Shown piece after piece: positions 1 through 29,116 of a stretch of 64,000 bases of DNA. The DNA is taken from NCBI GenBank assembly GCA_041665625.1, contig JBAYIK010000002.1, positions 33,126 to 97,125 of the forward strand, given 5' to 3'. This DNA is from Minisyncoccota bacterium. GTDB taxonomy: Bacteria > Patescibacteriota > Minisyncoccia > Phycocordibacterales > XYD1-FULL-46-19. The position numbers were made by a program, and so were the translations under genes. How positions within the stretch are numbered: position 1 is the first letter of the stretch; every line of letters starts with the position of its first letter. Below the pieces are notes generated by a model that did not search any database, was not told where the DNA came from, and saw only the letters and a program-made list of their open reading frames with translations.

Positions 1-1254
1 TTTGTAGGTGTAATTATATTTCTTAATCAGAGATTCGATAATTTCTTTGTCAGCAAAGGAACCCCAAGGCAAATAAATAATTCCATCTGTTTCTAGAAAA
101 GATTTTGCTTGTTTGAGAAATTGTTCCAAAGTGGACTCTACTTGGACACCTTGTTCACTCCATACCTCATCTAGAATGGGTAGATTTGCAGTTATAACGT
201 CAAATTTACCCTCAATTCCATCAAATATATTCGTCTTGACAATTTTGACCACATTTTCTACTTCATTACTCAATACATTCAAGCTAGCGTTCTCTATAGC
301 TTTTTCCGAGATGTCAGTAGCAATAACTTTCTTAGCCCCAAGTAAGGCTGCGATGACAGAAATAACCCCACTACCAGTTCCAATATCGGCAACCCGAAGT
401 CCACTTAAATCTTTAAGATTATCAATAATCATTGATGACGAATAAGTTATGTTTGGGTCACAAGTGAAAACTCCGTTATTTACGATAATCTTCGCTTTTC
501 CAAACGTTAATTCTTGTTCGTCGTGGGAAAATAACTTATTCCAGCTACCATCAACTTTATCAGTTTTGATTATTAAAAATGGTGGAGATTCTTTTTCGTC
601 TTTCCAGCCACGCCCATCATTTGGGGCTAATGGTTCTAAAATTTCTGGGTTACCAAAACCTGCTTCCTTGAGCATATCTAGGTAATTTTGTTTAGGCCAA
701 TAGTAATCAGGGATGTTGATGGGCGGGTTGCCTTTTAATAAAGTAATAACTCGGCAACCTGGCTTTAATTCTGGGACATAAACCATCTGATGAGTCATAA
801 AATCTTTACCGTTACTTCTGTCCCAATTTGGATTAAGTATTACTAGTTTTCCGCCCGTTTTTAGAAGAGAATGAATACGCTTAAGTACCTTGATAATCTC
901 TTCCTGAGATGAGATTTCACATAGTACAAAATTTAGCACTGCGTCATCGAAATAATCAGCATATTGTGTCTCTATCTCGGGATGTTCGCTTTCTAGCAAA
1001 TAAACAACGCTATTTTGTGTATCTTGCTCAGCAATCTCAAGTTGATGAGCTGACACGTCAACACCAACAACAGAGGCTCCTTGTTGAGCAAGGTAGATAC
1101 TAAACTTTCCATTGCCACAGCCGTAGTCTAGGATTTTTTTACCCTTTATTGGCTCCAATAGTCCTGCCACGGTTTTGTGGCCCAGCTCCCAATCAGTCGT
1201 CGCCTTCTTGCCGTAGGCCTTGTATTCTTTAGATATTTTATCGTAATCTCCCAT
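1..1254 (-). CDS. Two-domain class I SAM-dependent methyltransferase; ATG at 1254, C-terminus runs off the window start
   Basis: Uninterrupted minus-strand reading frame from the ATG at 1252-1254 to position 1. The ORF track omits it because it is edge-truncated. The N-terminal domain has motif I ILDYGCGNG. The second domain has VADIGTGSGVISV and FDVITANLP. The plus-strand ORFs 113-445, 449-685 and 909-1103 are its shadows. Confidence 0.6.
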   Translation of the reverse strand, partial: MGDYDKISKEYKAYGKKATTDWELGHKTVAGLLEPIKGKKILDYGCGNGKFSIYLAQQGASVVGVDVSAHQLEIAEQDTQNSVVYLLESEHPEIETQYADYFDDAVLNFVLCEISSQEEIIKVLKRIHSLLKTGGKLVILNPNWDRSNGKDFMTHQMVYVPELKPGCRVITLLKGNPPINIPDYYWPKQNYLDMLKEAGFGNPEILEPLAPNDGRGWKDEKESPPFLIIKTDKVDGSWNKLFSHDEQELTFGKAKIIVNNGVFTCDPNITYSSSMIIDNLKDLSGLRVADIGTGSGVISVIAALLGAKKVIATDISEKAIENASLNVLSNEVENVVKIVKTNIFDGIEGKFDVITANLPILDEVWSEQGVQVESTLEQFLKQAKSFLETDGIIYLPWGSFADKEIIESLIKKYNYTYK

Positions 1255-1260
1255 ATCTTT

Positions 1261-1692
1261 TTAATCCAACCACTCTAAAGGATATTCTTGAATCTGTAAA
1301 CCTAAATTCGAAAATAGTTGGCGTTCCCAAGTGGCTCCTTTTGAGCTTTGCCAATCTGGCAAGAACAAGGCAATTTTTATATAGCCAGACTCAAATACTT
1401 TTTTGTAAAATATGTTTAAAATTGGCAGACAGTATCCGTCGGTCTTTGGGTACTTTTTTGCTAGTCTTTGCAGTGTATCTTCAAATGGTGTTTGACTAAA
1501 AACTTGTAAGCCATTCTTGCCCGCGGTCTCAATTGCCTTTTCGAGATGAGCTAAGTTTTTCTCTATGCTACCAAGGCCACCGGTAGAAATTGGGCCACAA
1601 ACAAAGGCTATTGGTTTACCAGACTTGCTTATCTCTTCAAGCATCCCAATAGCTATTTCAGCTAAGTCTTCAAATGTTTCGACTTTATCCAT
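1261..1692 (-). CDS. Hypothetical Rossmann-fold protein; nucleoside 2-deoxyribosyltransferase-like / DUF4406-like is a guess
   Basis: 143-aa ORF. Its stop lies 7 nt upstream of the methyltransferase ATG, so the two likely form an operon. The motif IAFVCGPISTGGLG resembles the YIAGPMTG motif of the deoxyribosyltransferase-like fold. Confidence 0.45.
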   Translation of the reverse strand: MDKVETFEDLAEIAIGMLEEISKSGKPIAFVCGPISTGGLGSIEKNLAHLEKAIETAGKNGLQVFSQTPFEDTLQRLAKKYPKTDGYCLPILNIFYKKVFESGYIKIALFLPDWQSSKGATWERQLFSNLGLQIQEYPLEWLD

Positions 1693-1889
1693 TTCGTAAA
1701 TATGACAAAGTATACCAAAAGTTCTGAACCCTATCCAGGTTGCCCTAAATGGGCCTTATAAAATAAGGCTTAAAAAATGCTCGAATGGAGGGACGCATTT
1801 CGAACGTTTGACTGGGCAAGCTTGTACCCTAACCCTCAATTTCATCTAAATACTATGACTAATTTAATAGCCCTGAGTTTTTAAGTTTT

Positions 1890-2438
1890 ATGGCCAAAAG
1901 CAAAATACGAAAAGTAGAAAAGGACCTTGTCGCTTCCAAGGGCAAGAAAACAAGAGGAAAGAAGGTCTCAAATGTCCCCAAAATGACGGGGGACGATGAC
2001 GGTCTCTTTAAGTTTGTTGACTCCTCTGGGGTTCAAAATCCCCTTATACTATTGGACTTCATTAAGTGGAGTGCAGTACCTAAGGAGACCAGAGAATTAA
2101 AAACCCTTGGCGACTTTGAGACATTTTGTGGCCTCTCAAGAAAAACTCTCTTAAGGTGGACCTCACTTCCTGGATTCTGGGATGAGGTGGCCCTTTACAG
2201 AAACCAAGTAATGCGTAGTTTTTCGACTGAAATGGGTTTTATCTTAGTTAAGAGTGCTCGTCAGAAACTTGACCACAAGCCAGTTGAAATTTTCTTTCGA
2301 CTTTTTGAGGGCCTAAAGAGCGAGACTGAAATCCCCCAAAGGAGTCAGTTGACTGAAGAACAAAAAGAAAAATTAAGAGGGGCACTTAAGCTCACGGGCT
2401 TAGCCTCGATTGTCAAAGATAATCTTGATGACGAGTAG
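1890..2438 (+). CDS. Hypothetical basic protein with an HTH-like segment; possibly phage terminase small-subunit-like
   Basis: 182-aa ORF with a lysine-rich N-terminus, the HTH-like stretch TLGDFETFCGLSRKTLLRW and an acidic C-terminus. The function is an inference. Confidence 0.45.
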   Translation: MAKSKIRKVEKDLVASKGKKTRGKKVSNVPKMTGDDDGLFKFVDSSGVQNPLILLDFIKWSAVPKETRELKTLGDFETFCGLSRKTLLRWTSLPGFWDEVALYRNQVMRSFSTEMGFILVKSARQKLDHKPVEIFFRLFEGLKSETEIPQRSQLTEEQKEKLRGALKLTGLASIVKDNLDDE

Positions 2439-2514
2439 CCTAGAATTTTTTTGCACAACCTCTAAATTATTTCTTAATGGTCGGTCAGGCTGTAGTTTGA
2501 AGTTTTCTCATAAA

Positions 2515-2552
2515 AAGAAAAGGCGGGGTTGGGACCCGCCAATAGTCTTTTT
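2515..2552 (+). terminator. Rho-independent terminator after the 1890-2438 gene
   Basis: A-rich tract, then the hairpin GGCGGG-gttggga-CCCGCC at 2522-2540, then tagtcTTTTT. Confidence 0.5.
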
Positions 2553-2859
2553 GCTTTGGCAATGCCTAAGCTCGCAGACCAAGCGATGGCTTGTTTTTGT
2601 CTGGACGTAGCCACACGTCTCAATTGGGTTGCGGGGATATCGGACACCAGCCAATAAGTCCTTAATCACTACCGCCCTGCCACACTGGCCGAGGAGAAAC
2701 GTCGCGATTGGGCAGAGGCTCCTGGGGCCTCTTCTTAACCCTGACGGGGAGACCTTATCCTAGGCTGGATAGAACAAAAACTCCCTTCTATCTTTATTTA
2801 AGCACCTACTAGCCACTATTACAAGTTTTTTAGTGCCTCCTAATTTTGAGCCAAGGCTG

Positions 2860-2887
2860 TTGAAATAGACCCCCTCTCTGCTATAAT
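2860..2887 (+). promoter_or_regulatory. Sigma70-like promoter: TTGAAA, 16-nt spacer, TATAAT
   Basis: -35 TTGAAA at 2860-2865 and -10 TATAAT at 2882-2887. A highly structured RNA region starts about 7 nt downstream. Confidence 0.5.
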
Positions 2888-2893
2888 GGATTT

Positions 2894-3043
2894 GCGTCCC
2901 ACGTTACCAATTGAATAGTTATTAGCGGTAAAGCACTGCTTTTTTGAGTCCGATTGCGGACTGGAAGGGGCAGTTGACCTCCACAATCGGGGGCTTTACC
3001 GCCTCTGGTAATGTGGGACGCAGGTCGGCTGTCCCTTTTTGTG
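2894..3043 (+). ncRNA. Candidate structured cis-regulatory RNA or small RNA. It has nested long-range helices and an alternative terminator hairpin. The class is unknown.
   Basis: A 15-bp outer helix pairs 2894-2908 (gcgtcccacgttacc) with 3007-3021 (ggtaatgtgggacgc, one G-U). A perfect 10-bp inner helix pairs 2925-2934 (gcggtaaagc) with 2993-3002. Inner hairpins are actgc/gcagt and gtccg-attg-cggac. GGGAC at 3015-3019 can instead pair with GTCCC at 3031-3035, followed by TTTTTGTG, giving a mutually exclusive terminator. No tmRNA, RNase P or SRP motifs were found. Confidence 0.35.
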
Positions 3044-3088
3044 TTATCTAAAAATTAAAATTATTAGCGTCATAATTTTTAATTAAGT

Positions 3089-3532
3089 ATGGAAAAAGAG
3101 TATAAGGGTTATAACGGTTCTGTTATTTTAGGAGACAAGAGTCTTGCCATCAAACGAGGGCTCAGAGGAATTTTATTAGGAGGTGGTGCTATTAGGGGTG
3201 ATAAAACTATCCCTTATTCGAGCATTGTCGCTGTACAACTAAAGAAGGCTGGCTTTGTGGCTGGCTATATTCAGTTTACTCTCTCTGGTGGGTCAGAGGC
3301 TAAAGGTGGATTGTTTCAATCAGCTTACGATGAAAACTCAATCAACTTCCACCGCAAGGGCAATGATAAATTTGCGGAATTAAAAAAGTTAATTGAAGAA
3401 AGAATTGGTAGTGATTCAGTGAGTAGTCACAGCTCTCTGGACGAAATCGCTAAACTGGCAGAGCTAAGAGAAAAAGGGGTTATCACAGAGGAGGAATTTC
3501 AACAAAAGAAAAAACAATTATTAGCTTCTTAA
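3089..3532 (+). CDS. SHOCT-domain protein with a DUF4429-like N-terminal part
   Basis: The C-terminal stretch SSLDEIAKLAELREKGVITEEEFQQKKKQLL is a SHOCT motif. Confidence 0.65.
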   Translation: MEKEYKGYNGSVILGDKSLAIKRGLRGILLGGGAIRGDKTIPYSSIVAVQLKKAGFVAGYIQFTLSGGSEAKGGLFQSAYDENSINFHRKGNDKFAELKKLIEERIGSDSVSSHSSLDEIAKLAELREKGVITEEEFQQKKKQLLAS

Positions 3533-3547
3533 CCATAAAAAATAACT

Positions 3548-4015
3548 ATGGAAGAATTAAAAGGGTGGTTCAAGTTTGAGAATAACCTAAAGAGTATGCG
3601 ATGGTATCACTGGGTTTTACTAGTCGTCTTCTTGGCAGTTTTTGGAAACATAATGTCTGCTGTCTTAATTGATAGTCCAGCTCCAGCACAAAGCCCTAGC
3701 TCAAATCAGCCAAAAACGGAAGAAACGGCAAGCTCTGGCTCATCCATAAATTTTGATAAAGTCGAAAGTGCGGTCAACGCTCTTAAAATTACGGGTCTCG
3801 TTAAAAAAGTAGACTCTAGCTTAAATCAGGCCTACGTTGATGGTCTCAATTGGGGGACGCTTAATGTCGAGGAGAAAAAGACAACAGCACAGGCACTGGC
3901 TTACTACGTCGGCCACGAAGAAGGGACCAACCTCTACTGGGTGGATATCTATGACTGGCAATCTGGCAAAAAATTAGCTAAATTTAGTGATAGTTGGGGC
4001 TTCACGACCTACTAA
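3548..4015 (+). CDS. Hypothetical membrane-anchored extracytoplasmic protein
   Basis: N-terminal TM helix WYHWVLLVVFLAVFGNIMSAVLI, followed by a Ser/Pro-rich linker. Confidence 0.55.
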   Translation: MEELKGWFKFENNLKSMRWYHWVLLVVFLAVFGNIMSAVLIDSPAPAQSPSSNQPKTEETASSGSSINFDKVESAVNALKITGLVKKVDSSLNQAYVDGLNWGTLNVEEKKTTAQALAYYVGHEEGTNLYWVDIYDWQSGKKLAKFSDSWGFTTY

Positions 4016-4020
4016 CTAAA

Positions 4021-4572
4021 ATGTTGCCTAAAAATAAAAGATTCTTCTCCCTATTTTTGGCTTTTGGCCTGTTGTCTTGCGGACAGAGCGTTTTAGCTAT
4101 CCAGACCTCTATCATAGCCCCCGTAGAGGTCCATTTTGCCCCGTACGAGCTAATAACTCCTTTCATAGTCAAAGAGATTAAACAGGCCACTTCGACCATA
4201 CACGGCTCACTTTATGGCATTACAAACAAGGCCGTTGCAGACGCCCTAATTGAGCGAGACAGGTCAGGGGTTGAGGTCAAGATTGGCGAGGATAAACTCC
4301 AGTCGGCTGGCAAGTATGACCTACACAGATATTTATCAAGTAATGGAGTAGAAGTCGTTATCAAGAAGACCTCGGCACTGGAGCACAACAAATGGCTGAT
4401 TATCGACAATCAGGTGGTGCTTGAGGGTTCTTTCAATTACTCCAACAACGCTCAAAGTCAGGACAATAGCTTTATCATCTTTCGAAGTCCACAAATTGCC
4501 AGTCTGTTCGAGCAGAATTTTCTCAAAATTATGGCGAGAGATAAATATCCAGTAGACCCAACCATAAAATAA
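4021..4572 (+). CDS. Phospholipase D (HKD) superfamily endonuclease, Nuc-like, probably a secreted lipoprotein
   Basis: HKD motif HNKWLIIDNQVVLEGSFNYSNNAQ. The signal peptide with a lipobox-like LLSCGQ follows the ATG at 4021. The ORF track's alternative start is 3994. Confidence 0.7.
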   Translation: MLPKNKRFFSLFLAFGLLSCGQSVLAIQTSIIAPVEVHFAPYELITPFIVKEIKQATSTIHGSLYGITNKAVADALIERDRSGVEVKIGEDKLQSAGKYDLHRYLSSNGVEVVIKKTSALEHNKWLIIDNQVVLEGSFNYSNNAQSQDNSFIIFRSPQIASLFEQNFLKIMARDKYPVDPTIK

Positions 4573-4587
4573 AGCAACTAAGATAGG

Positions 4588-5145
4588 CTAAGTTTGGGAA
4601 TCATTGATAAATTGTCTAGCATTTTCGGAAACCCTTCCTGCGATAGAAGCTAAATTTGTTATTGCCGTTATAAAATTAAATTTATGAATAGGTTGAGCGA
4701 TATCTAGACAGCGAAGACTGCTTTTAAGATTCTCCCATTCGTGGAAATAATGTCCATAGAACCACCTATCAATTATTTTCTGAGTGGTCTCAACTTCGTC
4801 ATTAATCACGATTCTAATCATTGGATTGCACATCAGATTATTATAAGACTGCTTACACTTAATTATACTATTTCTCATCGCTGTGTTTTGGTTGCTATTT
4901 AACAACAAATCACAAATTTCTAGTATCGTAAGTCCCTCCTTTTTTAAGGTGATTTTTCTTAAATCAAGCAACATAGACCTTAGCTCATCTTCGTCGAATC
5001 CTGTAATGTCCTGGGATAGGGATTTATCAGTTTTATAATCCAACCTAAAAGCTATATTATCGACTCTCTTAAAAAACCGAGAAGACTGAACTCTCGTCAC
5101 GACATCTATATATGCTTCTATTTTTTCTCTATCTTGCTGGGTCAT
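4588..5145 (-). CDS. Hypothetical protein, 185 aa, translationally coupled to the upstream 821-aa gene
   Basis: The ORF overlaps the stop of 5129-7594 by 17 nt. No recognisable motif. Confidence 0.55.
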   Translation of the reverse strand: MTQQDREKIEAYIDVVTRVQSSRFFKRVDNIAFRLDYKTDKSLSQDITGFDEDELRSMLLDLRKITLKKEGLTILEICDLLLNSNQNTAMRNSIIKCKQSYNNLMCNPMIRIVINDEVETTQKIIDRWFYGHYFHEWENLKSSLRCLDIAQPIHKFNFITAITNLASIAGRVSENARQFINDSQT

Positions 5146-7594
5146 CTGGTGTTTCTTCTTCTGTCTCTTCTGACTTAGCCTTTTCCTGTAAACTTTTTAT
5201 GTCTTCCTCAATATCATCGTTTGCGGGACTATCTGCTGGCCACTTGCCCCATACCTTATAAGTGAACCAATCAATATCTGCTACATCTATCAAGGAGTAC
5301 ATCATAGACTGAGCATCATCCCTTATGCTCATATTACCGTTTAGTTTTTCGTAATCAAAGTTATATCTCCACTTACCCAACTCAACATAAAGTTGTTCTT
5401 TGTTCGGGCTAATCCTGTCTGGGTCAACACCAACAGGTAAATTGCTAAAGTATTTGTCATTATACTTTTTCTCAAAATCTAGAATCTTTAATTTTAATTC
5501 AGCATAGACATCCTCCCACTTATACTTAAGAGCTAAAATTCCTAAGTAGCAAGCCCTTTCAAAGATTCGAGGTTCATCATAACCGTAGCCTTCCGTTGTT
5601 TTATCTATCGCTTGGCCAGCCATAGAGGACAAAGAATTTATTGAATCGCTAGCGAGTTTTTTATTTTGAAGATTTGTCATTACTAGCAACCCCGTTTTTG
5701 CGACACTCTCAACTAAGGACCTAAAATTATTTGAACCGCCATCAAATTTTTCAGCGTGATGGGTAAACCAATAAGGAAGATGAAGATTCCAGCCAAGGTG
5801 TTTATATAGCTCCATTTTCTCGCCAGAGAACTCTGTGTTCTGAGCAATTTCTATAATCAAACTATTAACAGTAAAGAGTAGACGTCCAACGCTCTCTGCA
5901 AGATGGCTGTCGCAATTCTTAATCTTTTCTGATAGAGCCCTCAGACTTCCGTAGAGCTCCTCAAAAAATTCAACTATGTCGTTGCGGTAGCTGTCCTTTT
6001 CTCTTTTTTCTGTGAGAGCAAAATAATAATTTACTATTTGAGCAATCACAATGTAGAGCTGGTCATAGGCTTTTGTCATCGTGAGAGACGAGCTAATGTC
6101 ACTAGGTATATATCCGCTTTGTCTAGACACAAAGACATATTGGGCAATGGTCGCTATATGCTCCAGGGCGGGGTTAACCTGATATCTTGTAACCATTTTT
6201 TTGCTAAAAAACGAAGCCCCAATTATTTTAAGCAAATTGATATTACACTGGTCGATTATAATTAATTGTTTCTCCGCCAATCCATAAAAAGCAATCTCTT
6301 GTAGCTTATCCTGAATACCCCGAAGCATAGGGGTAAGTCCCTTATCTGAAGCGATTTCTCCAATGTTACCTAATTTATCGATACTCTGAAAAACGACCTC
6401 AAGATTTTTGCCCCTCTTCCCGATATCGATGAATTGAGAAAGGTTCCCTTCCAGACTCTCCAGTATTGGATTTTCGTTCGTCTGTCCTACATAAGTTATG
6501 TCCTTTGCTTTTAACGCTAAAAATTCATAAATACTGAGAAAAAGGGTTGCATTACCATCCTTTCCCTCCCTTATAAACTTTTCTCCAGCTTTATTTAAGC
6601 GTTCAAAATTGTTAAAGAGAAACCTCTGGCTATCGCTTTCAACGGCGAGAAAGGCAACAGCTGAAGGCATTGCAATAGAAGATGTCCTACGAACCTCAAG
6701 GAATCTCCCCAATATATTTCTTACAGCAATGAAACCCCTTTTTGTTGTTCCAACTTCCTGTTTGTCTGATAATTTTAAAGATATTTCGACGAGATTCTCA
6801 ATTTGTCTATCAAGATTATTAAAATAGGGCTGTAGAAAGGTATTGTAGGTTTTTGCGAGGGCTTCATTTTCTGACAATTTTTTATCTCTAGATACCATAA
6901 CCTTAGCAATTTTTCTTGCGTCGGATTCTACCAGGTTCAGAAACTGAATAGCTTGTTTTTCTAGAAAATAAATTGCGTTTGCGGGGTTTATCTTTTGTCG
7001 AACTGTTTTGTACTGCCAATCAATAAGGGCAAAGATAGCCCCTGCCAAAATAAGAGAAATTAGGGTTATGTACGAACTTACTGGTTCTAAAATTGTCTCA
7101 AGTCCTCCAACGTATAGACCTGCCCCAAAAAATAAGAGGGTTATAATAATAACAAGCAGGTAAACAATTTTTTCTTTCCAATCGTGTATGTACACGTCAA
7201 AATACTGAGAAGAGTACAGGTCAGAGGCACTTTGTATCATAAAAATAGAGATGGTAAACACTATTGCAATTGCACCCCCAGACATTGCCCCCACAGCGAT
7301 AAGATAATTGCTCAGGATATCTTGAGTTATCGAATGCCCTCCAAAACTAACTAAGAAAATGCCTATAATCAGACCAAGAAAGGCGAAACCAAACCTTAGG
7401 AGAACGTCGAATTTCCTTCCGAAGAAATTCTGTAATCTCCTCCACCTGTTCAGGTAAAGCCAGAAAGTAAGACTATAGCTGTACTGAAGGTAGGATAGCC
7501 AGCTTTGTTCCCAGCCACTCATTTCTTTTAGTAAATCTCTCACTTTTTCATTATTGACCAAAAGACTTGTTCTGTAAAGAATTGTCAAGTACAA
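5129..7594 (-). CDS. Hypothetical large membrane protein: N-terminal 4-TM block plus a roughly 600-aa cytoplasmic domain of unknown function
   Basis: 821-aa ORF. TM helices are FAFLGLIIGIFLVSFGG, LIAVGAMSGGAIAIVFTISIFMI, YLLVIIITLLFFGAGLYVGG and ITLISLILAGAIFALI. The true start may be downstream, for example at MSGWEQ. No catalytic motif recognised. Confidence 0.6.
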   Translation of the reverse strand: MYLTILYRTSLLVNNEKVRDLLKEMSGWEQSWLSYLQYSYSLTFWLYLNRWRRLQNFFGRKFDVLLRFGFAFLGLIIGIFLVSFGGHSITQDILSNYLIAVGAMSGGAIAIVFTISIFMIQSASDLYSSQYFDVYIHDWKEKIVYLLVIIITLLFFGAGLYVGGLETILEPVSSYITLISLILAGAIFALIDWQYKTVRQKINPANAIYFLEKQAIQFLNLVESDARKIAKVMVSRDKKLSENEALAKTYNTFLQPYFNNLDRQIENLVEISLKLSDKQEVGTTKRGFIAVRNILGRFLEVRRTSSIAMPSAVAFLAVESDSQRFLFNNFERLNKAGEKFIREGKDGNATLFLSIYEFLALKAKDITYVGQTNENPILESLEGNLSQFIDIGKRGKNLEVVFQSIDKLGNIGEIASDKGLTPMLRGIQDKLQEIAFYGLAEKQLIIIDQCNINLLKIIGASFFSKKMVTRYQVNPALEHIATIAQYVFVSRQSGYIPSDISSSLTMTKAYDQLYIVIAQIVNYYFALTEKREKDSYRNDIVEFFEELYGSLRALSEKIKNCDSHLAESVGRLLFTVNSLIIEIAQNTEFSGEKMELYKHLGWNLHLPYWFTHHAEKFDGGSNNFRSLVESVAKTGLLVMTNLQNKKLASDSINSLSSMAGQAIDKTTEGYGYDEPRIFERACYLGILALKYKWEDVYAELKLKILDFEKKYNDKYFSNLPVGVDPDRISPNKEQLYVELGKWRYNFDYEKLNGNMSIRDDAQSMMYSLIDVADIDWFTYKVWGKWPADSPANDDIEEDIKSLQEKAKSEETEEETPDDPAR

Positions 7595-7725
7595 TAAAAA
7601 TACTACTGAAAATCAGATAGTCTATATCGTGAAGATGGGTTTTTAGTCTTCTGAATAAGCTCAAGGTAGACAGGAATCTTCGCAAAGGCTAAAGGCTTTA
7701 TTTATAAGATGAAAATGAAAATAAT

Positions 7726-8133
7726 ATGGGTTACCAACCTTACGGTTCGAACTTAGACGACATAGCGTACAGGGTAAATTTCGACCCGAATATACTCTGT
7801 ATTTTAGTAAACGGACACGAACTTAGCCGACTTCACTCTAAGACAGACATAGCTGATTTTTTTGAGTATGTTAACTCTCACCCAAATATAGCTATCAAAC
7901 TGAGCGACCTAAAAAAGCTTAGGCTCAAGAAAGGTCTTGACGATATTTTGAGAGATATTGGTTTTAGAGGAATCTTGGCAAAAATGTTTTTTCCTAAGAT
8001 GACCAACAGTGAAATTATTTTTAGAAATCCTATTTACCAAAAGGACCTAGAGGAACTAGGTATCGACTATGTAGATGCGTGGATACTGCTCCATACCCCT
8101 AAAAGAAAGGGGGCTTTCGACGTAACTTCTTAA
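7726..8133 (+). CDS. Hypothetical protein, 135 aa
   Basis: ORF in the accessory block, divergent from the 821-aa gene. Confidence 0.45.
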   Translation: MGYQPYGSNLDDIAYRVNFDPNILCILVNGHELSRLHSKTDIADFFEYVNSHPNIAIKLSDLKKLRLKKGLDDILRDIGFRGILAKMFFPKMTNSEIIFRNPIYQKDLEELGIDYVDAWILLHTPKRKGAFDVTS

Positions 8134-8191
8134 CACGTTTTAGCCCTCCTCTATAATTATCTGTGTTAGCCTGTCTACATAACCGATAATT

Positions 8192-8437
8192 ATGGAAAAT
8201 GAAAATAAAAAATTCCTGACCAGGGACTTCTACATAACCGCCTTCTTAATAGCGAAGGGGTATAAAGTCTCAGATGTTGATATGACAATCCCAGACAAAA
8301 TGTTCTTCTCCTTTGAGGACTTCAAAGGTAGGGAGCGTTTGGTTAGGGATTTTTTATGTGGGCAAGCTTCAGTTGAGCCCCAGAAATTTATTTCAGGGAT
8401 AAAAATACTGAAGTCTTTGATACACGCAAGAGATTAA
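8192..8437 (+). CDS. Hypothetical small protein, 81 aa
   Basis: ORF. It might be a directionality or regulatory factor because it sits next to the recombinase, but this is speculative. Confidence 0.4.
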   Translation: MENENKKFLTRDFYITAFLIAKGYKVSDVDMTIPDKMFFSFEDFKGRERLVRDFLCGQASVEPQKFISGIKILKSLIHARD

Positions 8438-8454
8438 ACAAGTTAGTAATAAAA

Positions 8455-8928
8455 ATGAAAATGAACAAACCACAGAGAACCAACCCTAAGAGCAATGTTG
8501 TAAAACTGGCCTTATGCACGGTGGGGCTCATATGCGAAAGGAGGAAAAACAAGTTGCCGACTCTTGCCTCCCTTCTGATATGCGTCGCACCGAAAAACTT
8601 TCTTTCTGTGGTCCATATCGTCAAACTTTTTATTTCCTCTAAAATCAGAAGGAAAAGTCGGGCTAATGGTAAAAATAAAATTATAATAGGTAGGTTAATT
8701 GTTCATAAACTAGACGGCAATTTTGATACTGAGGATATTGAGCTGTCTTGTTCAGGACCGAAGCAGTCAATAAGCCCAGAGACAATTAGAGAATTCAAGC
8801 AGATTGTGGAGGAAGAATACGGGCTAGTGATAGACAAGACTGACGCCTCTAGAATACTTTGTGGGTTGACCAACTTTTTCGACTTGCTAGCAAAAATAGA
8901 TTATCGAGAAAAAATAAAAGATGGTTGA
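8455..8928 (+). CDS. Hypothetical protein; the real start is probably internal
   Basis: ORF immediately upstream of the recombinase. Confidence 0.35.
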   Translation: MKMNKPQRTNPKSNVVKLALCTVGLICERRKNKLPTLASLLICVAPKNFLSVVHIVKLFISSKIRRKSRANGKNKIIIGRLIVHKLDGNFDTEDIELSCSGPKQSISPETIREFKQIVEEEYGLVIDKTDASRILCGLTNFFDLLAKIDYREKIKDG

Positions 8929-8973
8929 AAATTATAAGTTGAGTTTAATTCGCTAATTGTTAGAATTAAAATA

Positions 8974-10560
8974 ATGAAAGATAATAATATGGAAAAAATT
9001 ACAAAAATGGTTAAGGCAGTAATCTTCCCCAGAGTCTCTTCGAAGGAACAGGAGGAAACAGGTTACTCCCTAGACGCTCAGCAGGAGCTGTTGAAGAATT
9101 ATAGTGACAAGCACTCGTTTGAAGTGGCCAAGGCCTTTAGAGTTTCGGAATCGGCTAGTGGTAAAAAACAAAGGTCGACCTTCAACGAAATGATGGCCTA
9201 TATGGATAAGAACAAAATAAACATACTCGTCTGCGAAAAGGTCGACAGATTAACTCGTAATTTTAAGGACGCAATTTTTATTGATGAATGGCTTGATAAA
9301 AACGAAAATCGACAGATTCATTTAGTCAAAGACGGTATAGTCTTGCACAAGTATTCTAAATCACAAGAAAAGCTTAATTGGGGAATCAGGATACTGTTCG
9401 CCAAAAATTATACTGATAATCTTTCGGAGGAAGTTAAAAAAGGCCAAAAACAGAAGTCAAAGGAAGGGTGGCTACCAACAAAGCCACCGCTGGGTTATAG
9501 AACGATAGGAGAGAAGGGCCACAAGGTGCACGTTGTTGATGAGAAGGTTGCTCCTTATATCAAAAAAATGTTTGACCTTTATGCCACAGGCAACTACTCA
9601 ACAGACTCTTTGGGGGACAAAATGTATAAGCTTGGGCTAAGAAGCCGTGGTGGTTTTCGAGTAGTTAAAAGCAAGATTCACAAACTTCTCTCTGACCCCT
9701 TCTACTATGGAATGTTTGTCTGGAAAGGTGAGGTCTATCAAGGGAAGCACGAACCGTTAATTGATAAAGACCTCTTTGGCCAAGTCAGGGAAAAAATGAC
9801 CAGGGGTAGTGCTCCCTACCACAACAAACATTTTAAGGAATTAAGAGGTAAGATATTTTGTGGAAATTGTGGCAAGACTGTAACCTGGGAAAAACAGAAA
9901 GGCTCTTGGTATGGGGCTTGCAAACAGTGCAAAGCTCAACTAGCCGACAAGAGGCAATATATTAAACAAGAAAATGTTGAGAACTACTTGCTGGACCTTA
10001 TAATCGCTACAGCACCCAAAAACGAAAGGATTCTTGCTGTTCTTAACAAGGCCCTCAAAGAGAGTCATAGCGAAGAAATTATATATCACGAAACACAGGT
10101 CCAGAGTATAAACAATAGCCTTACTCGTATCCAACAGAGGAAAAAGGTTCTCTATGATGACCGCCTAGATGGTAGAATTTCTCCCTCTGAATATGACCAA
10201 AAAATTGAGGAGTTTAGGCAAGAAGAAACTGACTTAATAAATTCGCTAAGCAAATTGAAGTCTGACAACACAGAATACTATAGAGTTGGTATCGCCCTTC
10301 ACGAGCTCGCTCTACGAGCAAGAGAAATATATTTAAGCAAAAAGGCTACAGTGGAAGAGCGTCGCTTGCTCTTGTCTTACTCTTTCTCGAACGTCTCGGT
10401 TCTACGGGGAGATATAAGGGCAGAGTACACAAAAGCGTTCCAGTTTTTGATTGATTGGATGCCGAAGGTAAATGAAACTCTCGAACTCACAAAAGACGTT
10501 GAGAATAAACAACAAAAGAGCACTTTCGTGCCCTCTTGTCCTATCCTGCTCCGCGGGTAG
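8974..10560 (+). CDS. Large serine recombinase (integrase / resolvase family)
   Basis: The N-terminal catalytic domain VIFPRVSSKEQEE...ILVCEKVDRLTRN carries the catalytic Ser. A recombinase domain follows, then the zinc ribbon CGNCGK...CKQCK and a coiled-coil C-terminus. The stop codon 10558-10560 overlaps the 3' end of tRNA exon 2. Confidence 0.85.
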   Translation: MKDNNMEKITKMVKAVIFPRVSSKEQEETGYSLDAQQELLKNYSDKHSFEVAKAFRVSESASGKKQRSTFNEMMAYMDKNKINILVCEKVDRLTRNFKDAIFIDEWLDKNENRQIHLVKDGIVLHKYSKSQEKLNWGIRILFAKNYTDNLSEEVKKGQKQKSKEGWLPTKPPLGYRTIGEKGHKVHVVDEKVAPYIKKMFDLYATGNYSTDSLGDKMYKLGLRSRGGFRVVKSKIHKLLSDPFYYGMFVWKGEVYQGKHEPLIDKDLFGQVREKMTRGSAPYHNKHFKELRGKIFCGNCGKTVTWEKQKGSWYGACKQCKAQLADKRQYIKQENVENYLLDLIIATAPKNERILAVLNKALKESHSEEIIYHETQVQSINNSLTRIQQRKKVLYDDRLDGRISPSEYDQKIEEFRQEETDLINSLSKLKSDNTEYYRVGIALHELALRAREIYLSKKATVEERRLLLSYSFSNVSVLRGDIRAEYTKAFQFLIDWMPKVNETLELTKDVENKQQKSTFVPSCPILLRG

Positions 10561-10586
10561 GACTCGAACCTACGACCAACCCGTTA

Positions 10587-11133
10587 CACTAATCCTGATG
10601 TTTCCAAAAGGCGTGGACTATATCATCACCCGGTCTGGGTGCAAGGCGCTTCCCCCGTACTTACGGAGTACTCTCTTTCGAGATAGTCTCTGAACCTTCC
10701 CTCTGATTTCTCTCGGGGCTTGGCTGCTGATTACCCTCGTCTTGACGTTAGGGCTTCCAGCAATTCACCTTGTTATTCATTCCTAAATTCCTTTAGGAAG
10801 CTGCGTAATACCTTCGTGTACTTCCATGTGACAATTAGCGCAAAGCAAAACGCATTTAGCAATCTCCTTCTCTATCTTCTCCCAAGATCTAGTTAATCCT
10901 CTTACAGATAAACCGAAATCTTTTTTCTTAGGATCAATATGATGAAAACTGAGAGCGCTCTGACTCTTAGAATAACCACATATCGCACACTTGCTACCTT
11001 TTGACGCACGAGCCATTTCTCTTAATTTTTTACGACGAAGAGATACAGCTTGGCGCAAATAGACAGCACGGTCTTTATAAGTTCTTTTGTCTGGCATACT
11101 CATACAAGTATACCATATTTGAACTCATGTGAC
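10587..11133 (-). other. Group I intron in the tRNA anticodon loop, carrying an HNH endonuclease ORF
   Basis: Reading the minus strand after the ORF: P-like gaattgctggaag, Q-like aatcagcagcc, R element GTTCAGAGACTAT (forward 10683-10696) and S element GATATAGTCCACGC (forward 10611-10624). P7 pairs GACTA with TAGTC. The 5' splice follows a U and the 3' splice follows a G. Confidence 0.7.
10783..11103 (-). CDS. HNH homing endonuclease encoded inside the group I intron
   Basis: 106-aa ORF with CAICGYS...HHIDPKK...CANCHMEVH, which is an HNH motif with a zinc-finger-like Cys/His arrangement. It lies between the intron 5' end and the P3-P9 core. Confidence 0.75.
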   Translation of the reverse strand: MSMPDKRTYKDRAVYLRQAVSLRRKKLREMARASKGSKCAICGYSKSQSALSFHHIDPKKKDFGLSVRGLTRSWEKIEKEIAKCVLLCANCHMEVHEGITQLPKGI

Positions 11134-11262
11134 ACAGCGGGCCGCTCTACCAACTGAGCTACCGCGGAATATAATTTTTAAGGAACTCCTCAATTTTAAA
11201 CAAAAAAGACGAAAAAGGCAAGGATTCAAAACCTCTCGATTTTATGGCTTTTTCCTGTATAA

Positions 11263-13026
11263 TTGGCCCATATGAAATGGAACCTAAAACCCTTATTTAA
11301 GAGCGATACTGACCCCAATATCGCCAAGAAGCAGGCCGAGTCAGTGAAAGCTAGTTATGTCTTTATTAACAAATGGCGAATTCGTAAAGATTATTTGAGT
11401 GACCCTAAAGTGCTCGCGGTCGCCCTCAAGGAGTTCGAAGCCTGGGACGCGCAATCTGGCACCAACGACCAAGTCTGCTATTACTTCTCTCTCCGTGGTG
11501 AATTAGAGAAGGGCAACGCCAAGATCAAGGCCAGTTTCAATCAGGCTAAAGATGTCGCGGTTAAGATTGATAATGATATTCAGTTTTTTACTCTTAACTT
11601 AAGTAAAATTGGAGTAACAACTCAAAAAAAATTCCTCAAGGCGCCAGAGCTTACCCCCTATCACCAATTACTTAAAAAACTTTTTGAGACCGGGCGCTAT
11701 ACCAAGTCTGACGCCGAAGAAAAAATTATTAATCAACTCTCTGACACTAGTTACCACCGCTGGGTTGAACTTATCGAATCACTCCTCGCCGAAGAAGAAC
11801 GTGGGGGCAAAAACTTTCCCACCCTTCTCTCCGAATGTGCTAACCAGGATAAAAAGAAGCGAGATCAAGCCAGCCAAGCAGCCAATGAGATCCTCGCCAC
11901 TTGGGCCCCCGTCGCCGAACAAGAATTAAACGCTGTTCTCGAACACAAAAAGACCATGGATCAAATCCGTGGCGCCGAAGAGCCCGAAACACTTCGTCTC
12001 TTAGGTGACGATATTGATAAAAAGACAGTTGAGGCCATGCTTGAAGCGGTTGAGGATAATTTCAAGCTAGCCAAACGTTACCACCAGCTCAAAGCTAAAT
12101 TACTTAAGCAAAAGAAAATTAGCTATTTCGAGCGTGGAGTACCAGTGGGGAAAATTAACAAAAAGTGGGCCTTCCTTGACGCCCAAAATTTAGTTCAAAA
12201 TCAATTAGCAAAGCTTGATCCCGAACTCGGCCAAATTTTTACTAGCTTTATTAAAAACGGCCAGATCGACGTCTTGCCTAAAAAGGGCAAAAGAGGAGGA
12301 GCCTTCTGTATTAGTCATTCTCCCACTCTCCCAACCTATATTCTTCTTAATTACACTGGAGAATGGCGCGACGTTAAAACTCTCGCTCACGAAGTGGGAC
12401 ATGGTATTAACAATGAGCTCATTCGCAAAAACAGCCGCCCCATTTATTTTGGCACTCCCATCTCCACGGCTGAAGTGGCGAGCACCTTCTTCGAAGACAT
12501 TGTGTTAGAATCTTCAAGAGAAAATGTGTCTGAACAAGAAAAATTAACCTTAATGATGGCCAAGCTTGATGACGAGATTGGTACCATCTTCCGCCAAGTG
12601 GCGGCTTACCGCTTCGAACAAACTCTACACAAGACTTATCGTGAACAAGGCTATCTGTCTAAAGAAGTTATCGGCAAAATGTGGCTGGCCGAGATGAAAA
12701 AATATTTAGGCGAAGCCGTGACTTATCCCAAAGGTAGCGAGAATTGGTGGGTACACTGGAGCCACTTCCGCAACTTCTTCTACGTCTATTCTTATGCCTC
12801 GGGCCTCCTGATCGCCAAAGCCCTGCAAGCTAAAGTAAGAGAAAATCCGAAATTTATAAAAGAAGTAAAAATCTTTCTCAGCACCGGCACCGCCAAGAGC
12901 CCCAAAGATATTTTTTCTGAGCTTGGCCTTAACATCGAAGATCCTAAATTCTGGCAAGCCGGCCTTAATCAATTTGCCAAGCTTCTGAGTGAAGCTGAGA
13001 AATTAGCTAAGAAAATCAAACTCTAA
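11263..13026 (+). CDS. pepF: Oligoendopeptidase F (M3B family)
   Basis: 587 aa with the HExxH zinc motif TLAHEVGHGINNE and typical M3 architecture. Confidence 0.8.
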   Translation: MAHMKWNLKPLFKSDTDPNIAKKQAESVKASYVFINKWRIRKDYLSDPKVLAVALKEFEAWDAQSGTNDQVCYYFSLRGELEKGNAKIKASFNQAKDVAVKIDNDIQFFTLNLSKIGVTTQKKFLKAPELTPYHQLLKKLFETGRYTKSDAEEKIINQLSDTSYHRWVELIESLLAEEERGGKNFPTLLSECANQDKKKRDQASQAANEILATWAPVAEQELNAVLEHKKTMDQIRGAEEPETLRLLGDDIDKKTVEAMLEAVEDNFKLAKRYHQLKAKLLKQKKISYFERGVPVGKINKKWAFLDAQNLVQNQLAKLDPELGQIFTSFIKNGQIDVLPKKGKRGGAFCISHSPTLPTYILLNYTGEWRDVKTLAHEVGHGINNELIRKNSRPIYFGTPISTAEVASTFFEDIVLESSRENVSEQEKLTLMMAKLDDEIGTIFRQVAAYRFEQTLHKTYREQGYLSKEVIGKMWLAEMKKYLGEAVTYPKGSENWWVHWSHFRNFFYVYSYASGLLIAKALQAKVRENPKFIKEVKIFLSTGTAKSPKDIFSELGLNIEDPKFWQAGLNQFAKLLSEAEKLAKKIKL

Positions 13027-28399: not shown

Positions 28400-29116
28400 T
28401 TATAAACTATTTTTCTTCAGCTTCCACTTATCAATCTCGGCGTGGTGGCCGGAGAGGAGGACCTTAGGGACGCGATATTTCTTTTTGTTGAAAGTAAGAA
28501 CCTCAGGGCGGGTATAAATCTCCGAAATTGAGATGCGTCGCTCCTCGATTGATTCATCTTTACCTAAGACGCCCGGTAAACGACGAGTGATAGCGTCTAC
28601 GACGATCATCGCAGGAACTTCTCCACCGGTCAGTATATACGGACCGACTGATAAGTCATCAGCTTTAAGAATTTTTTTGACCCGAGCGTCGAGGCCCTCA
28701 TAACGTCCGCAGATCAAGACAATATGTTTAGTCATTAATTTGTCAGACCATTCCCCTTTTCTAAAGCCAGCAAGTTTATCGGCGAGAATATTGTCGAAAA
28801 TTTGGCCAGCGGGAGAAAAAATATAAATTTTGGGCTTAGTCTTCGAAGTCTTCGTTTTAGCGAGAGCTTTACTCACGGCCTTAAGCACTGGCTCAGCCAA
28901 CATCACCATACCGGGACCACCTCCGTAAGGACGACCGTCAGTCTTTTTGTAATCTAATCTACCATCCACTTGTTTGCCAATTGTACCAGCGTAGTCACGC
29001 GGATTATAATAAGAAATTTTTATTTTCTTCTCTTTCTGGGCGCGACCAAGAATCGAGGCGTTTAGATACGCCTCGATGGTCTCGGGAAACAAAGTAATAA
29101 TGTGGAAATTTAACAT
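28400..29116 (-). CDS. trmD: tRNA (guanine37-N1)-methyltransferase
   Basis: SPOUT fold with the TrmD-type N-terminus MLNFHIITLFPE. Confidence 0.85.
   Translation of the reverse strand: MLNFHIITLFPETIEAYLNASILGRAQKEKKIKISYYNPRDYAGTIGKQVDGRLDYKKTDGRPYGGGPGMVMLAEPVLKAVSKALAKTKTSKTKPKIYIFSPAGQIFDNILADKLAGFRKGEWSDKLMTKHIVLICGRYEGLDARVKKILKADDLSVGPYILTGGEVPAMIVVDAITRRLPGVLGKDESIEERRISISEIYTRPEVLTFNKKKYRVPKVLLSGHHAEIDKWKLKKNSL

What the first reader, a model, noticed from the sequence alone, without database searches (positions are those of the whole stretch)
8974..10596. Large serine recombinase whose stop codon overlaps exon 2 of the intron-containing tRNA, marking an integrated element
The 528-aa serine recombinase converges on the tRNA, and its last 12 nt overlap the tRNA acceptor and T-stem 3' strand. 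This is the classic signature of an element that integrated at a tRNA 3' end and reconstitutes it. Everything upstream for about 7 kb is accessory. The accessory cargo is small unknown proteins, an 821-aa membrane protein with its 185-aa partner, a secreted HKD/PLD nuclease, a SHOCT protein and a structured RNA.
Basis: inference. Interest (0 to 1): 0.6.

Follow-up and report, generated by a model that had tools for sequence, protein, structure and literature searches.

The report
Serine-integrase island at tRNA-Asn
An 8.8-kb mobile element sits at the 3' end of the tRNA-Asn gene of an uncultured Patescibacteria (CPR) bacterium, and inserting there cuts the last 33 codons off its own serine-integrase gene and leaves them at the element's far end.

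Summary
ORF 8974-10560 (+) is a 528-aa large serine recombinase (LSR). Its last 12 nt are antisense to the acceptor and T-stem of tRNA-Asn(GUU). That tRNA is split at position 35/36 by a 547-nt group I intron carrying an HNH gene, a published Patescibacteria feature.

A related metagenome contig joins the window's left flank directly to an intact tRNA-Asn. This sets the crossover in TGCTC (attL 1778-1782, attR 10547-10551) and the element at 8,769 bp. Joining the two element ends gives an attP colinear with contiguous sequence in a 7.7-kb circular relative.

This is not the tyrosine-integrase tRNA signature, because only 5 nt are shared and no tRNA fragment is displaced.

All six related integrated LSRs checked overlap tRNA-Asn. 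About 106 of the 120 best homologues end in antisense-tRNA residues.

attP lies inside the integrase ORF. The circular form would encode 559 aa. Integration replaces a conserved 33-aa tail, still intact at 1783-1884, with Arg-Gly-stop.

Activity of this copy is untested. I rate it a new variant of a known kind.

The parts
1709..1777 (.). Host trailer of tRNA-Asn, the B side of the attachment site. It also holds a promoter-like site for the 143-aa gene to its left.
   Evidence: It is 95% identical to L018 3457-3525, which abuts an intact tRNA-Asn. The promoter-like site is at 1737..1709 (-).
1778..1782 (.). attL core TGCTC, which contains the crossover
   Evidence: These are the only bases shared by attL, attR and the unoccupied site in L018. 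GCTC is invariant in the attP alignment.
1783..1810 (+). P' half-site of attP, the element's left end
   Evidence: It is conserved at the left ends of the L030, L023 and L024 elements and in the circular L021. CGAAC lies 5 nt further from the core than it does in the tRNA (B') half-site, as in the LSR att-site model (PMC3783163).
1783..1884 (+). Split-off last 33 codons plus stop of the integrase gene (EWRDAFRTFDWASLYPNPQFHLNTMTNLIALSF*)
   Evidence: It is in frame with the LSR across the reconstructed attP, giving 559 aa. The same 33-codon frame and stop position occur in L030, L023 and L024. pN is 0.26-0.34 against pS 0.61-0.82, and the other two frames hold 1-6 stops. The tail matches those of homologues P0019 and P0099.
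1890..2438 (+). 182-aa protein, the first gene after the tail. By my reading of the sequence it looks like a DNA-binding helix-turn-helix protein, so it is a candidate accessory or directionality factor.
   Evidence: It is homologous to the first gene of the L023 element and to the L026 gene that overlaps the LSR start. It has no Pfam, PHROG, PADLOC or NCBIfam hit.
2889..3028 (+). Strongly structured non-coding stretch within the 650-nt gap 2440-3088
   Evidence: The fold of 2860-3040 has MFE -80.7 kcal/mol and z -6.7. There is no Rfam match and no match in related loci.
3089..4572 (+). Cargo: a DUF4429-SHOCT protein (3089-3532), a 155-aa unknown (3548-4015) and a PLD-family nuclease-like protein (3994-4572)
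   Evidence: Pfam SHOCT 8e-11, DUF4429 and PLDc_2 5.6e-17. NucT-like and DrmC-like hits are weak.
4588..7594 (-). Cargo: a 185-aa protein (4588-5145) and an 821-aa protein (5129-7594), both of unknown function
   Evidence: Neither has a family hit. The 185-aa protein has a 42%-identical homologue in the L030 island.
7726..8437 (+). Small unknown ORFs: 135 aa (7726-8133) and 81 aa (8192-8437, DUF5659)
   Evidence: ORFs. DUF5659 is the precomputed annotation of the identical gene in L002.
8767..8928 (+). Conserved small protein (about 53 aa) found upstream of the LSR across the family. It is a candidate regulator or directionality factor.
   Evidence: It aligns with small ORFs upstream of the LSR in L021, L023, L024, L026 and L028. 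The window copy lacks the ATG of its homologues.
8974..10560 (+). Large serine recombinase, 528 aa in the integrated state. Its last two sense codons (Arg-Gly, 10552-10557) and the TAG stop are host tRNA antisense sequence.
   Evidence: There are 1,927 homologues at E<=1e-20, and the source names given are all Paceibacterota/CPR.
10511..10546 (-). P half-site of attP, including a terminator-like hairpin (10540..10511) that now follows the tRNA
   Evidence: The hairpin has 13 pairs, a GAAA loop and a T-rich tail, with z -6.2. It is the most conserved DNA block in the family alignment.
10547..10551 (.). attR core TGCTC, which is G71-A72-G73-C-A on the tRNA strand
10549..10586 (-). tRNA-Asn(GUU) exon 2 (positions 36-73). 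It contains the B' half-site.
   Evidence: It is identical to the intron-less tRNA-Asn in L006, L017, L018 and L019. ARAGORN calls the joined exons tRNA-Asn.
10587..11133 (-). Group I intron at tRNA position 35/36, carrying an HNH endonuclease ORF (10783-11103)
   Evidence: Rfam RF00028 at 78.7 bits. Pfam HNH and PHROG HNH at 5e-29. The type is described in PMC13011429.
11134..11168 (-). tRNA-Asn exon 1 (positions 1-35)

Best explanation
Window 1783-10551 is an 8,769-bp integrative element of a Paceibacteria (CPR) bacterium. Its own large serine recombinase inserted it at the extreme 3' end of the tRNA-Asn(GUU) gene.

Mechanism:
- The recombinase binds attP. The P arm is the last ~35 nt of its own coding region, and the P' arm is what is now the element's left end.
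- It binds attB. The B' arm is the acceptor and T-arm of tRNA-Asn, and the B arm is the tRNA trailer.
- It exchanges strands at a dinucleotide inside TGCTC.

Consequences:
- The tRNA stays intact.
- The tRNA's own trailer ends up 8.8 kb away.
- The element supplies a new terminator-like hairpin that lies inside the integrase coding sequence.
- attP lies inside the integrase ORF. The gene loses its last 33 codons, which stay at the far end at 1783-1884, and instead ends Arg-Gly-stop in antisense tRNA sequence. Excision would restore a 559-aa protein.

Shown here: the domain architecture, both junctions, an unoccupied site in a relative, colinearity of the rebuilt attP with a circular relative, the same arrangement across the family, and protein-level conservation of the tail.

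Inferred: catalysis, the exact crossover dinucleotide, whether this copy still excises, and what the tail does.
For: - LSR domains and catalytic and zinc-binding residues are present.
- L018 joins window 1709-1782 to the tRNA-Asn 3' end with a 5-nt overlap, TGCTC.
- The rebuilt attP (10470-10551 plus 1783-1890) aligns without a break to contiguous sequence in L021, L023 and L024.
- L021 is a 7,798-nt contig with a 127-nt terminal overlap, so it is circular. It carries the LSR in its long form.
- The CGAAC motif sits at +19-23 in P' and (as CGAAA) in P, but at +14-18 in B'. This is the 5-bp shift described for LSR sites.
- Homologues at 54-73% identity (L026, L028, L030) and three lineages at 24-31% identity (L006, L017, second LSR of L024) all overlap tRNA-Asn.
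- 101 of 120 homologues are classed automatically as ending in acceptor or T-arm antisense residues. Five more are classed so by eye.
- The LSR is absent next to the same tRNA in L016, L018, L019 and L020.
- Cargo differs between elements.
- The tail ORF is conserved at four element left ends, with pN well below pS.
- The element's GC is 39.7%, against 44.6% to its right.
- Identical junctions appear in four independent assemblies.
Against: - No empty site and no circular form of this exact element was found. Same-species contigs are all occupied, and the 559-aa sequence is not in the protein collection.
- L018 is not a clean empty site. It also holds a second copy of the 74-nt trailer next to a decayed P'-like end.
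- The B arms of different hosts share no motif.
- No recognisable directionality factor, replication, transfer or packaging gene is present.
- The window's copy of the conserved small ORF lacks its ATG.
- The left flank is also low in GC (41%), so composition does not mark the left border.
- The structure model gives the tail low confidence.
Confidence: 0.85

Rival explanations
1. The element did integrate through the recombinase but is now an immobile relic, and the recombinase gene is simply what is left.
For: No excised or empty form of this element was found. The conserved small ORF lacks its start codon here. No directionality factor is recognisable. L018 shows that relics of such elements exist.
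Against: The LSR ORF is full length with intact catalytic and zinc-binding residues. Both half-sites match the family consensus. The 33-codon tail frame has no stop or frameshift.
Confidence: 0.2
2. The recombinase is a conserved host gene fixed at this position, for example a domesticated resolvase or developmental excisase, and not part of a mobile element.
For: A recombinase lies next to tRNA-Asn in several related genomes.
Against: Those recombinases are only 24-31% identical to each other. They come with different cargo. They are missing from four of the seven loci with the same tRNA. A circular form of a homologous element exists.
Confidence: 0.03
3. The region is a prophage or phage satellite rather than a plain integrative element.
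For: The LSR matches phage integrase family phrog_95. The 182-aa first gene looks to me like the small DNA-binding proteins seen in phages (my reading, not a test).
Against: At 8.8 kb it is too small for a tailed phage. No capsid, terminase, portal or lysis family is hit. Two scans of viral contigs found nothing.
Confidence: 0.07
4. The junctions are a metagenome assembly artefact.
For: The window comes from a metagenome contig. One other assembly breaks at 1708 and 10576.
Against: The same junction sequences occur at 100% identity in ENA, Logan (two runs) and JGI assemblies. Homologous junctions occur in unrelated samples.
Confidence: 0.01

Closest known systems
Large serine integrases of phages and integrative elements (Listeria A118/LI, phiC31, Bxb1, TP901-1; CcrB; XisF)
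   Same: The three-domain architecture is the same: a catalytic Ser domain, a recombinase domain and a zinc ribbon. A model of a homologue shows the coiled-coil insertion. The att sites are short and share only a few central bases. The outer motif is shifted 5 bp between attP and attB.
   Different: Sequence similarity is distant. NCBIfam scores are far below the cut-offs, and the best solved-structure match is the TP901-1 catalytic domain at 5.8e-07. The target is a tRNA gene, which a survey of mapped elements called unreported for serine integrases (14 of 297; PMC7192596). attP lies inside the integrase ORF.
tRNA-gene genomic islands of the tyrosine-integrase type (Islander paradigm)
   Same: The element sits at the 3' end of a tRNA gene, the integrase gene is at the tRNA-proximal end, and the tRNA stays functional.
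   Different: The enzyme is a serine recombinase, not a tyrosine recombinase. The two ends share only 5 nt. No tRNA fragment is displaced. At most 3 nt of the mature tRNA lie in the core.
Archaeal SSV-type 'suicidal' integrases, whose att site lies within their own gene
   Same: The recombination site lies inside the integrase ORF, so integration splits the gene and excision restores it.
   Different: Those are tyrosine recombinases, and a review states that such enzymes occur only in archaea (PMC8371274). They are split so that the enzyme is disrupted. Here only a 33-aa C-terminal tail is removed, and all catalytic and DNA-binding domains remain.
Integration-dependent immunity of some mycobacteriophages (attP inside the repressor gene, C-terminal degradation tags). 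This comparison is recalled from memory and was not checked here.
   Same: Integration changes the C-terminus of an element-encoded regulatory protein, so the integrated and free states make different proteins.
   Different: There the truncated protein is the repressor and the integrase is a tyrosine recombinase. Here the integrase itself is truncated. No degradation-tag function has been shown.
Group I introns at position 35/36 of tRNA-Asn in Patescibacteria (Nakagawa et al. 2026, PMC13011429)
   Same: The tRNA, the insertion site, the HNH gene inside the intron and the failure of standard tRNA finders all match.
   Different: Nothing differs in the intron itself. That paper does not mention recombinases or integrated elements at this tRNA.

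Membership tests
Large serine recombinase (serine integrase) | N-terminal resolvase-type catalytic domain with the nucleophilic serine | tested here: met
   PF00239 at 4.7e-21 over residues 15-165. R20-V21-S22 is present, and R-V-S is invariant in 64 homologues.
Large serine recombinase (serine integrase) | Recombinase domain following the catalytic domain | tested here: met
   PF07508 at 4.9e-14 over residues 191-277.
Large serine recombinase (serine integrase) | Zinc-ribbon domain with four Cys | tested here: met
   PF13408 scores 24.4 bits, just under the 25.3 cut-off. CxxC...CxxC is present at 296/299/316/319. Several homologues carry the precomputed PF13408 hit.
Large serine recombinase (serine integrase) | Coiled-coil motif inserted in the zinc-ribbon domain | tested here: inconclusive
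   The AlphaFold2 model of homologue P0019 (62% identical, mean pLDDT 83) has long paired helices at 345-392 and 398-423 after the ribbon strands. The window protein itself was not modelled.
Large serine recombinase (serine integrase) | Short attP and attB sites sharing only a central core, with the outer motif about 5 bp nearer the centre in attB | tested here: met
   The core is TGCTC. CGAAC lies at +19-23 in P' and +14-18 in B'. The model is from PMC3783163. The B arm shows no motif.
Large serine recombinase (serine integrase) | Catalyses attP x attB recombination, with excision dependent on a directionality factor | not testable with these tools
   This needs a recombination assay. Only candidate accessory genes were found.
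tRNA-gene genomic island, tyrosine-integrase paradigm | Island bounded by the regenerated tRNA gene and a displaced tRNA fragment as a direct repeat | tested here: not met
   No repeat of the tRNA end was found in 1-11300. The junctions share only TGCTC.
tRNA-gene genomic island, tyrosine-integrase paradigm | Tyrosine recombinase as the integrase | tested here: not met
   The only recombinase in the element is of the serine family.
Integrases with the att site inside their own gene (SSV-type, 'suicidal') | attP lies within the integrase ORF, so integration splits the gene | tested here: met
   The core lies 33 codons before the stop of the reconstructed 559-aa ORF. The split-off part is conserved at four element left ends.
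Integrases with the att site inside their own gene (SSV-type, 'suicidal') | Tyrosine recombinase of archaeal elements, with the split disrupting the enzyme | tested here: not met
   This is a serine recombinase in a bacterial (Paceibacterota) host. All domains remain in the 528-aa form.
Patescibacterial tRNA-Asn group I intron (position 35/36) | Group I intron fold, insertion between nt 35 and 36 of tRNA-Asn(GUU), optional HNH gene | tested here: met
   RF00028 at 78.7 bits against a gathering score of 50. The junction was fixed by the intron-less allele in L006. The ORF is an HNH endonuclease. Self-splicing was not testable.
Prophage | Capsid, terminase, portal, tail or lysis genes | tested here: not met
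   No such PHROG family is hit by nine of the element's proteins (the 147- and 155-aa cargo ORFs were not scanned against PHROGs). The element is 8.8 kb.

The most novel reading that the evidence does not exclude
The 33-aa tail that integration removes works as a built-in sensor of the element's state. The integrase made from the free circle (559 aa) and the one made from the integrated copy (528 aa) would then differ in directionality or stability. One option is an integration-proficient long form and an excision-proficient short form. Another is a long form marked for degradation. Small elements could then control direction without, or alongside, a separate directionality factor. This would be a bacterial, serine-family counterpart of archaeal 'suicidal' integrases, which a 2021 review says occur only in archaea. 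It would be shared by at least four deep recombinase lineages that all target tRNA-Asn in CPR bacteria.
Probability: 0.25. Interest if true: 0.8.

Novelty: new variant of a known kind. Interest (0 to 1): 0.62.

Why it matters
Serine integrases are the main tools for inserting large DNA into genomes, and how they choose direction is an active question.

This is a large natural family: 1,927 homologues at E<=1e-20, and every source name given is Paceibacterota/CPR. It has three notable properties.

1. It targets a tRNA gene. A 2020 survey of mapped elements called tRNA targets unreported for serine integrases (PMC7192596).
2. Its recognition appears to rest mainly on the tRNA half-site.
3. Its attP lies inside the integrase gene, so the free and integrated states encode different proteins.

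If the tail affects direction or stability, it offers a simple, directly testable switch. The family also identifies a main integration hotspot and route of gene flow in CPR bacteria, whose mobile elements are poorly known.

The tRNA intron itself is already published and ordinary for this phylum.

Tried and rejected
1. A 7-nt match, CCTATCC (1730-1736 and 10540-10546), together with the ends of contig L002 (1708, 10576), first suggested a different core. L018 showed the true junction is TGCTC at 1778-1782, so the 7-mer is chance. The L002 left end coincides with the start of the 74-nt trailer. Its right end is as expected from a k-mer branch at 10546/10547.
2. A repeat search of 1-11300 found no copy of the tRNA 3' end.
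3. ARAGORN with introns allowed did not find the tRNA.
4. Viral-contig scans with the recombinase and with tRNA exon 2 found nothing.
5. An exact-protein look-up of the left-flank gene found only occupied copies of the same strain.
The exact sequence is not in the protein collection.
7. Reading the left-end TTCGAAC as a decayed tRNA fragment was considered. I set it aside in favour of a P' half-site, because the motif keeps a fixed 5-nt offset across elements and lies in a conserved coding frame.
8. The structure model of a long-form homologue did not place the tail. The linker at 501-527 has pLDDT below 50, and the terminal helix has low confidence.
9. PADLOC, NCBIfam, Pfam and PHROG gave no function for the 821-aa, 185-aa, 182-aa and 135-aa proteins. 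The 155-aa protein was scanned only against Pfam and PADLOC, also without a hit.
10. Literature searches found no description of serine-recombinase elements at tRNA-Asn in Patescibacteria.
Full report
**Observation.**
ORF 8974-10560 (+) encodes a 528-aa protein with Resolvase, Recombinase and zinc-ribbon domains. It matches the PHROG integrase family phrog_95 at 4e-74. It has the R-V-S catalytic motif at residues 20-22 and CxxC...CxxC at 296-319. It is a large serine recombinase (LSR).

ARAGORN sees no tRNA next to it, even with introns allowed. Rfam finds a group I intron on the minus strand (78.7 bits). The flanking sequence reads as two halves of a tRNA.

A Ca. Vogelbacteria genome contig (L006) was found through the neighbouring M3 peptidase, which is 82% identical. 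It carries the same tRNA without the intron. This fixes the parts:
- exon 1 at 11168-11134
- the intron at 11133-10587 (547 nt, between tRNA positions 35 and 36)
- exon 2 at 10586-10549

The joined exons are called tRNA-Asn(GUU).

**The intron.**
It carries an HNH endonuclease ORF at 10783-11103. Group I introns at 35/36 of tRNA-Asn in Patescibacteria, some with HNH genes and missed by standard tRNA finders, were described and shown to self-splice by Nakagawa et al. 2026 (PMC13011429). That part is known. The paper does not mention recombinases.

**Organism and independent copies.**
The window is part of a 135-kb ENA metagenome contig. The LSR is named by NCBI as coming from a Candidatus Paceibacterota MAG. 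The same sequence, including both junctions, occurs at 100% identity in Logan and JGI assemblies. The junctions are therefore not assembly artefacts.

**Boundaries.**
A metagenome scan for exon 2 returned five loci. In L018, a 74-nt stretch that is 95% identical to window 1709-1782 runs straight into an intact tRNA-Asn. The two matches overlap by TGCTC. The junctions are:
- attL: ...AAAAAA-TGCTC-GAATGG... with the core at 1778-1782
- attR: ...CTATCC-TGCTC-CGCGGG... with the core at 10547-10551
- unoccupied site: ...AAAAAA-TGCTC-CGCGGG...

The element is 8,769 bp. On the tRNA strand the core is G71-A72-G73-C-A. The tRNA is essentially untouched, and no tRNA fragment is displaced.

An earlier candidate core, CCTATCC, was chance.

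The element's GC is 39.7% against 44.6% to its right. The left flank is also low at 41%, so composition does not mark that border.

**attP and a circular relative.**
Joining 10470-10551 to 1783-1890 gives a sequence that aligns without a break to contiguous sequence in three loci carrying homologous LSRs. One of them, L021, is a 7,798-nt contig with a 127-nt terminal overlap. It is therefore a circular 7.7-kb element.

The arms show the layout described for LSR sites (PMC3783163):
- An outer motif, CGAA(A/C)GT, lies at +19-25 in both P and P'.
- In the tRNA half-site (B') the same CGAAC, which is the T-loop, lies at +14-18, 5 nt closer to the core.
- The B arms of four hosts share no motif, so recognition seems to rest mainly on the tRNA side.

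**A family habit.**
The LSR has 1,927 homologues at E<=1e-20, and all the source names given are Paceibacterota/CPR.

The 120 best homologues divide as follows by C-terminus:

| C-terminal type | Count |
|---|---|
| Stop within three codons of the conserved ...LL (LRG, LRR, LPG and similar) | 66 |
| Run on as ...RQDSNLRPID, the antisense reading of a T-arm | 35 |
| The same T-arm type, classed by eye | 5 |
| Different tails | about 14 |

Three homologues at 54-73% identity were fetched with their DNA, and all overlap tRNA-Asn. So do three other LSR lineages that are only 24-31% identical to this one and to each other: L006, L017 and the second LSR of L024.

The LSR is absent next to the same tRNA in L016, L018, L019 and L020. 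Cargo differs from element to element. The recombinase is therefore mobile and variable, not a core gene.

A survey of mapped integrative elements found serine integrases at t(m)RNA genes in only 14 of 297 cases and called such use previously unreported (PMC7192596).

**The split integrase gene.**
The core lies inside the LSR reading frame. Read across the rebuilt attP, the ORF continues for 33 more codons and stops at 1884, giving 559 aa. The added tail is EWRDAFRTFDWASLYPNPQFHLNTMTNLIALSF. It resembles the tails of homologues that do not end in tRNA antisense, such as P0019 and the circular P0099.

The left ends of three other integrated elements (L030, L023, L024) keep the same 33-codon frame with the stop at the same place. 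Non-synonymous differences are 0.26-0.34 per site against 0.61-0.82 for synonymous sites. The other two frames hold 1-6 stops. The tail is therefore a real coding sequence maintained by selection, although in the integrated state it lies 8.8 kb from the rest of the gene. This implies regular passage through the circular form.

Integration replaces the tail with Arg-Gly-stop read from the tRNA.

A review states that recombinases whose own gene is split by integration are known only from archaea, where they are tyrosine enzymes (PMC8371274). Here the catalytic and DNA-binding domains stay intact.

An AlphaFold2 model of P0019 has mean pLDDT 83. It gives a disordered linker at 501-527 and a low-confidence terminal helix, so the model does not say what the tail does.

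**Other consequences of integration.**
The tRNA is separated from its native trailer. Directly after the tRNA, the element provides a 13-bp hairpin with a GAAA loop and a T-rich tail at 10540-10511 on the tRNA strand (z -6.2). This hairpin lies within the codons for ...KSTFVPS... and is the most conserved DNA block of the family. It may serve both as part of the P half-site and as a replacement terminator. This is an inference.

**Cargo and accessory genes.**
Recognisable cargo is limited to:
- a PLD-family nuclease-like protein
- a DUF4429-SHOCT protein
- a DUF5659 protein

The 821-aa, 185-aa, 155-aa and 135-aa proteins have no family match in the libraries each was scanned against. No phage structural, replication or transfer genes were found.

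Two genes are shared across the family and are candidates for regulators or directionality factors:
- a ~53-aa ORF upstream of the LSR (8767-8928), which lacks its ATG in this copy
- the 182-aa protein that follows the tail in the circular order

**Limits.**
- No circular form and no empty site of this exact element was found.
- L018 is not a simple empty site. It has a second copy of the 74-nt trailer next to a decayed P'-like end, with 1.6 kb between the copies. I cannot explain this.
- Recombination activity, the crossover dinucleotide and the role of the tail are untested.

**Verdict.**
One correction applies: this is a serine-integrase site with a 5-nt core, not the classic tyrosine-integrase tRNA signature. 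Three features go beyond the ordinary:
- a large CPR family of serine integrases specialised on tRNA-Asn
- attP placed inside the integrase gene
- a conserved tail that integration removes

Noticed in passing
window 10587-11133 (-), ORF 10783-11103 (-): tRNA-Asn(GUU) is interrupted at position 35/36 by a 547-nt group I intron carrying an HNH endonuclease gene. ARAGORN misses the gene entirely. This matches the type published for Patescibacteria (PMC13011429). L016 and L020 hold related intron-containing alleles with no recombinase beside them, so the intron and the element are independent.
   Followed up: yes
L006 4573-4895 (-): Just upstream of the intact tRNA-Asn lies a decayed copy of the tRNA 5' half, broken by two small hairpin insertions. 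It is followed by an 81-aa GIY-YIG endonuclease ORF whose ATG sits in the former anticodon region.
   Followed up: partly
L018 1773-1856 and 3457-3530: The 74-nt tRNA-Asn trailer is present twice, 1.7 kb apart. It is 95% identical to the window, although the neighbouring genes are unrelated or only 71% identical. One copy abuts the tRNA. The other is followed by TGCTCCGCGGGT and a degenerate P'-like end. His_Phos_1 and HAD-like genes lie between the copies. The origin of this duplication is unexplained.
   Followed up: partly
window 2889-3028 (+), within the non-coding gap 2440-3088: A long branched hairpin (MFE -80.7 kcal/mol and z -6.7 for the fold of 2860-3040) with no Rfam match and no counterpart in related elements. 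It could be a non-coding RNA or a DNA-level origin-like structure.
   Followed up: partly
L023 ~969 and ~11570; L024 ~2591, ~11560 and 18465: These contigs hold an attL-type junction plus an internal attP-type junction (an LSR with its long tail). In L024 a second, unrelated LSR also sits at tRNA-Asn. This looks like tandem arrays of elements at the one site.
   Followed up: partly
window 1777-1884 (+): At attL the host base A plus the core TG forms an ATG in frame with the split-off tail. This gives a possible 35-aa micro-ORF (MLEWRDAF...ALSF) in the integrated state. The same holds in L030 and L023 but not in L024, so it may be a by-product of the A-rich trailer.
   Followed up: partly
L006 103-224 (-): A LOOT RNA (RF03000, 82 bits) lies beside the PrimPol/AAA_25 gene of the unrelated LSR element integrated at tRNA-Asn in that genome.
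   Followed up: no
L019, about 77 nt 3' of the tRNA-Asn: A 13-nt copy of the tRNA 3' end (TGCTCCGCGGGTA) lies just downstream of the tRNA. It may be a scar of an earlier event.
   Followed up: no
window 28985-29081 (+): ARAGORN calls a 97-nt tRNA-Lys(UUU) here. Rfam does not see it, and it lies inside ORF 28400-29116 (-). It is probably a false call.
   Followed up: no
window 1709-1737 (-): A promoter-like site (TGGATA-17-TATACT with an upstream TG) inside the conserved 74-nt trailer points toward the 143-aa gene at 1692-1261. In L018 both copies of the trailer also sit upstream of minus-strand genes.
   Followed up: no
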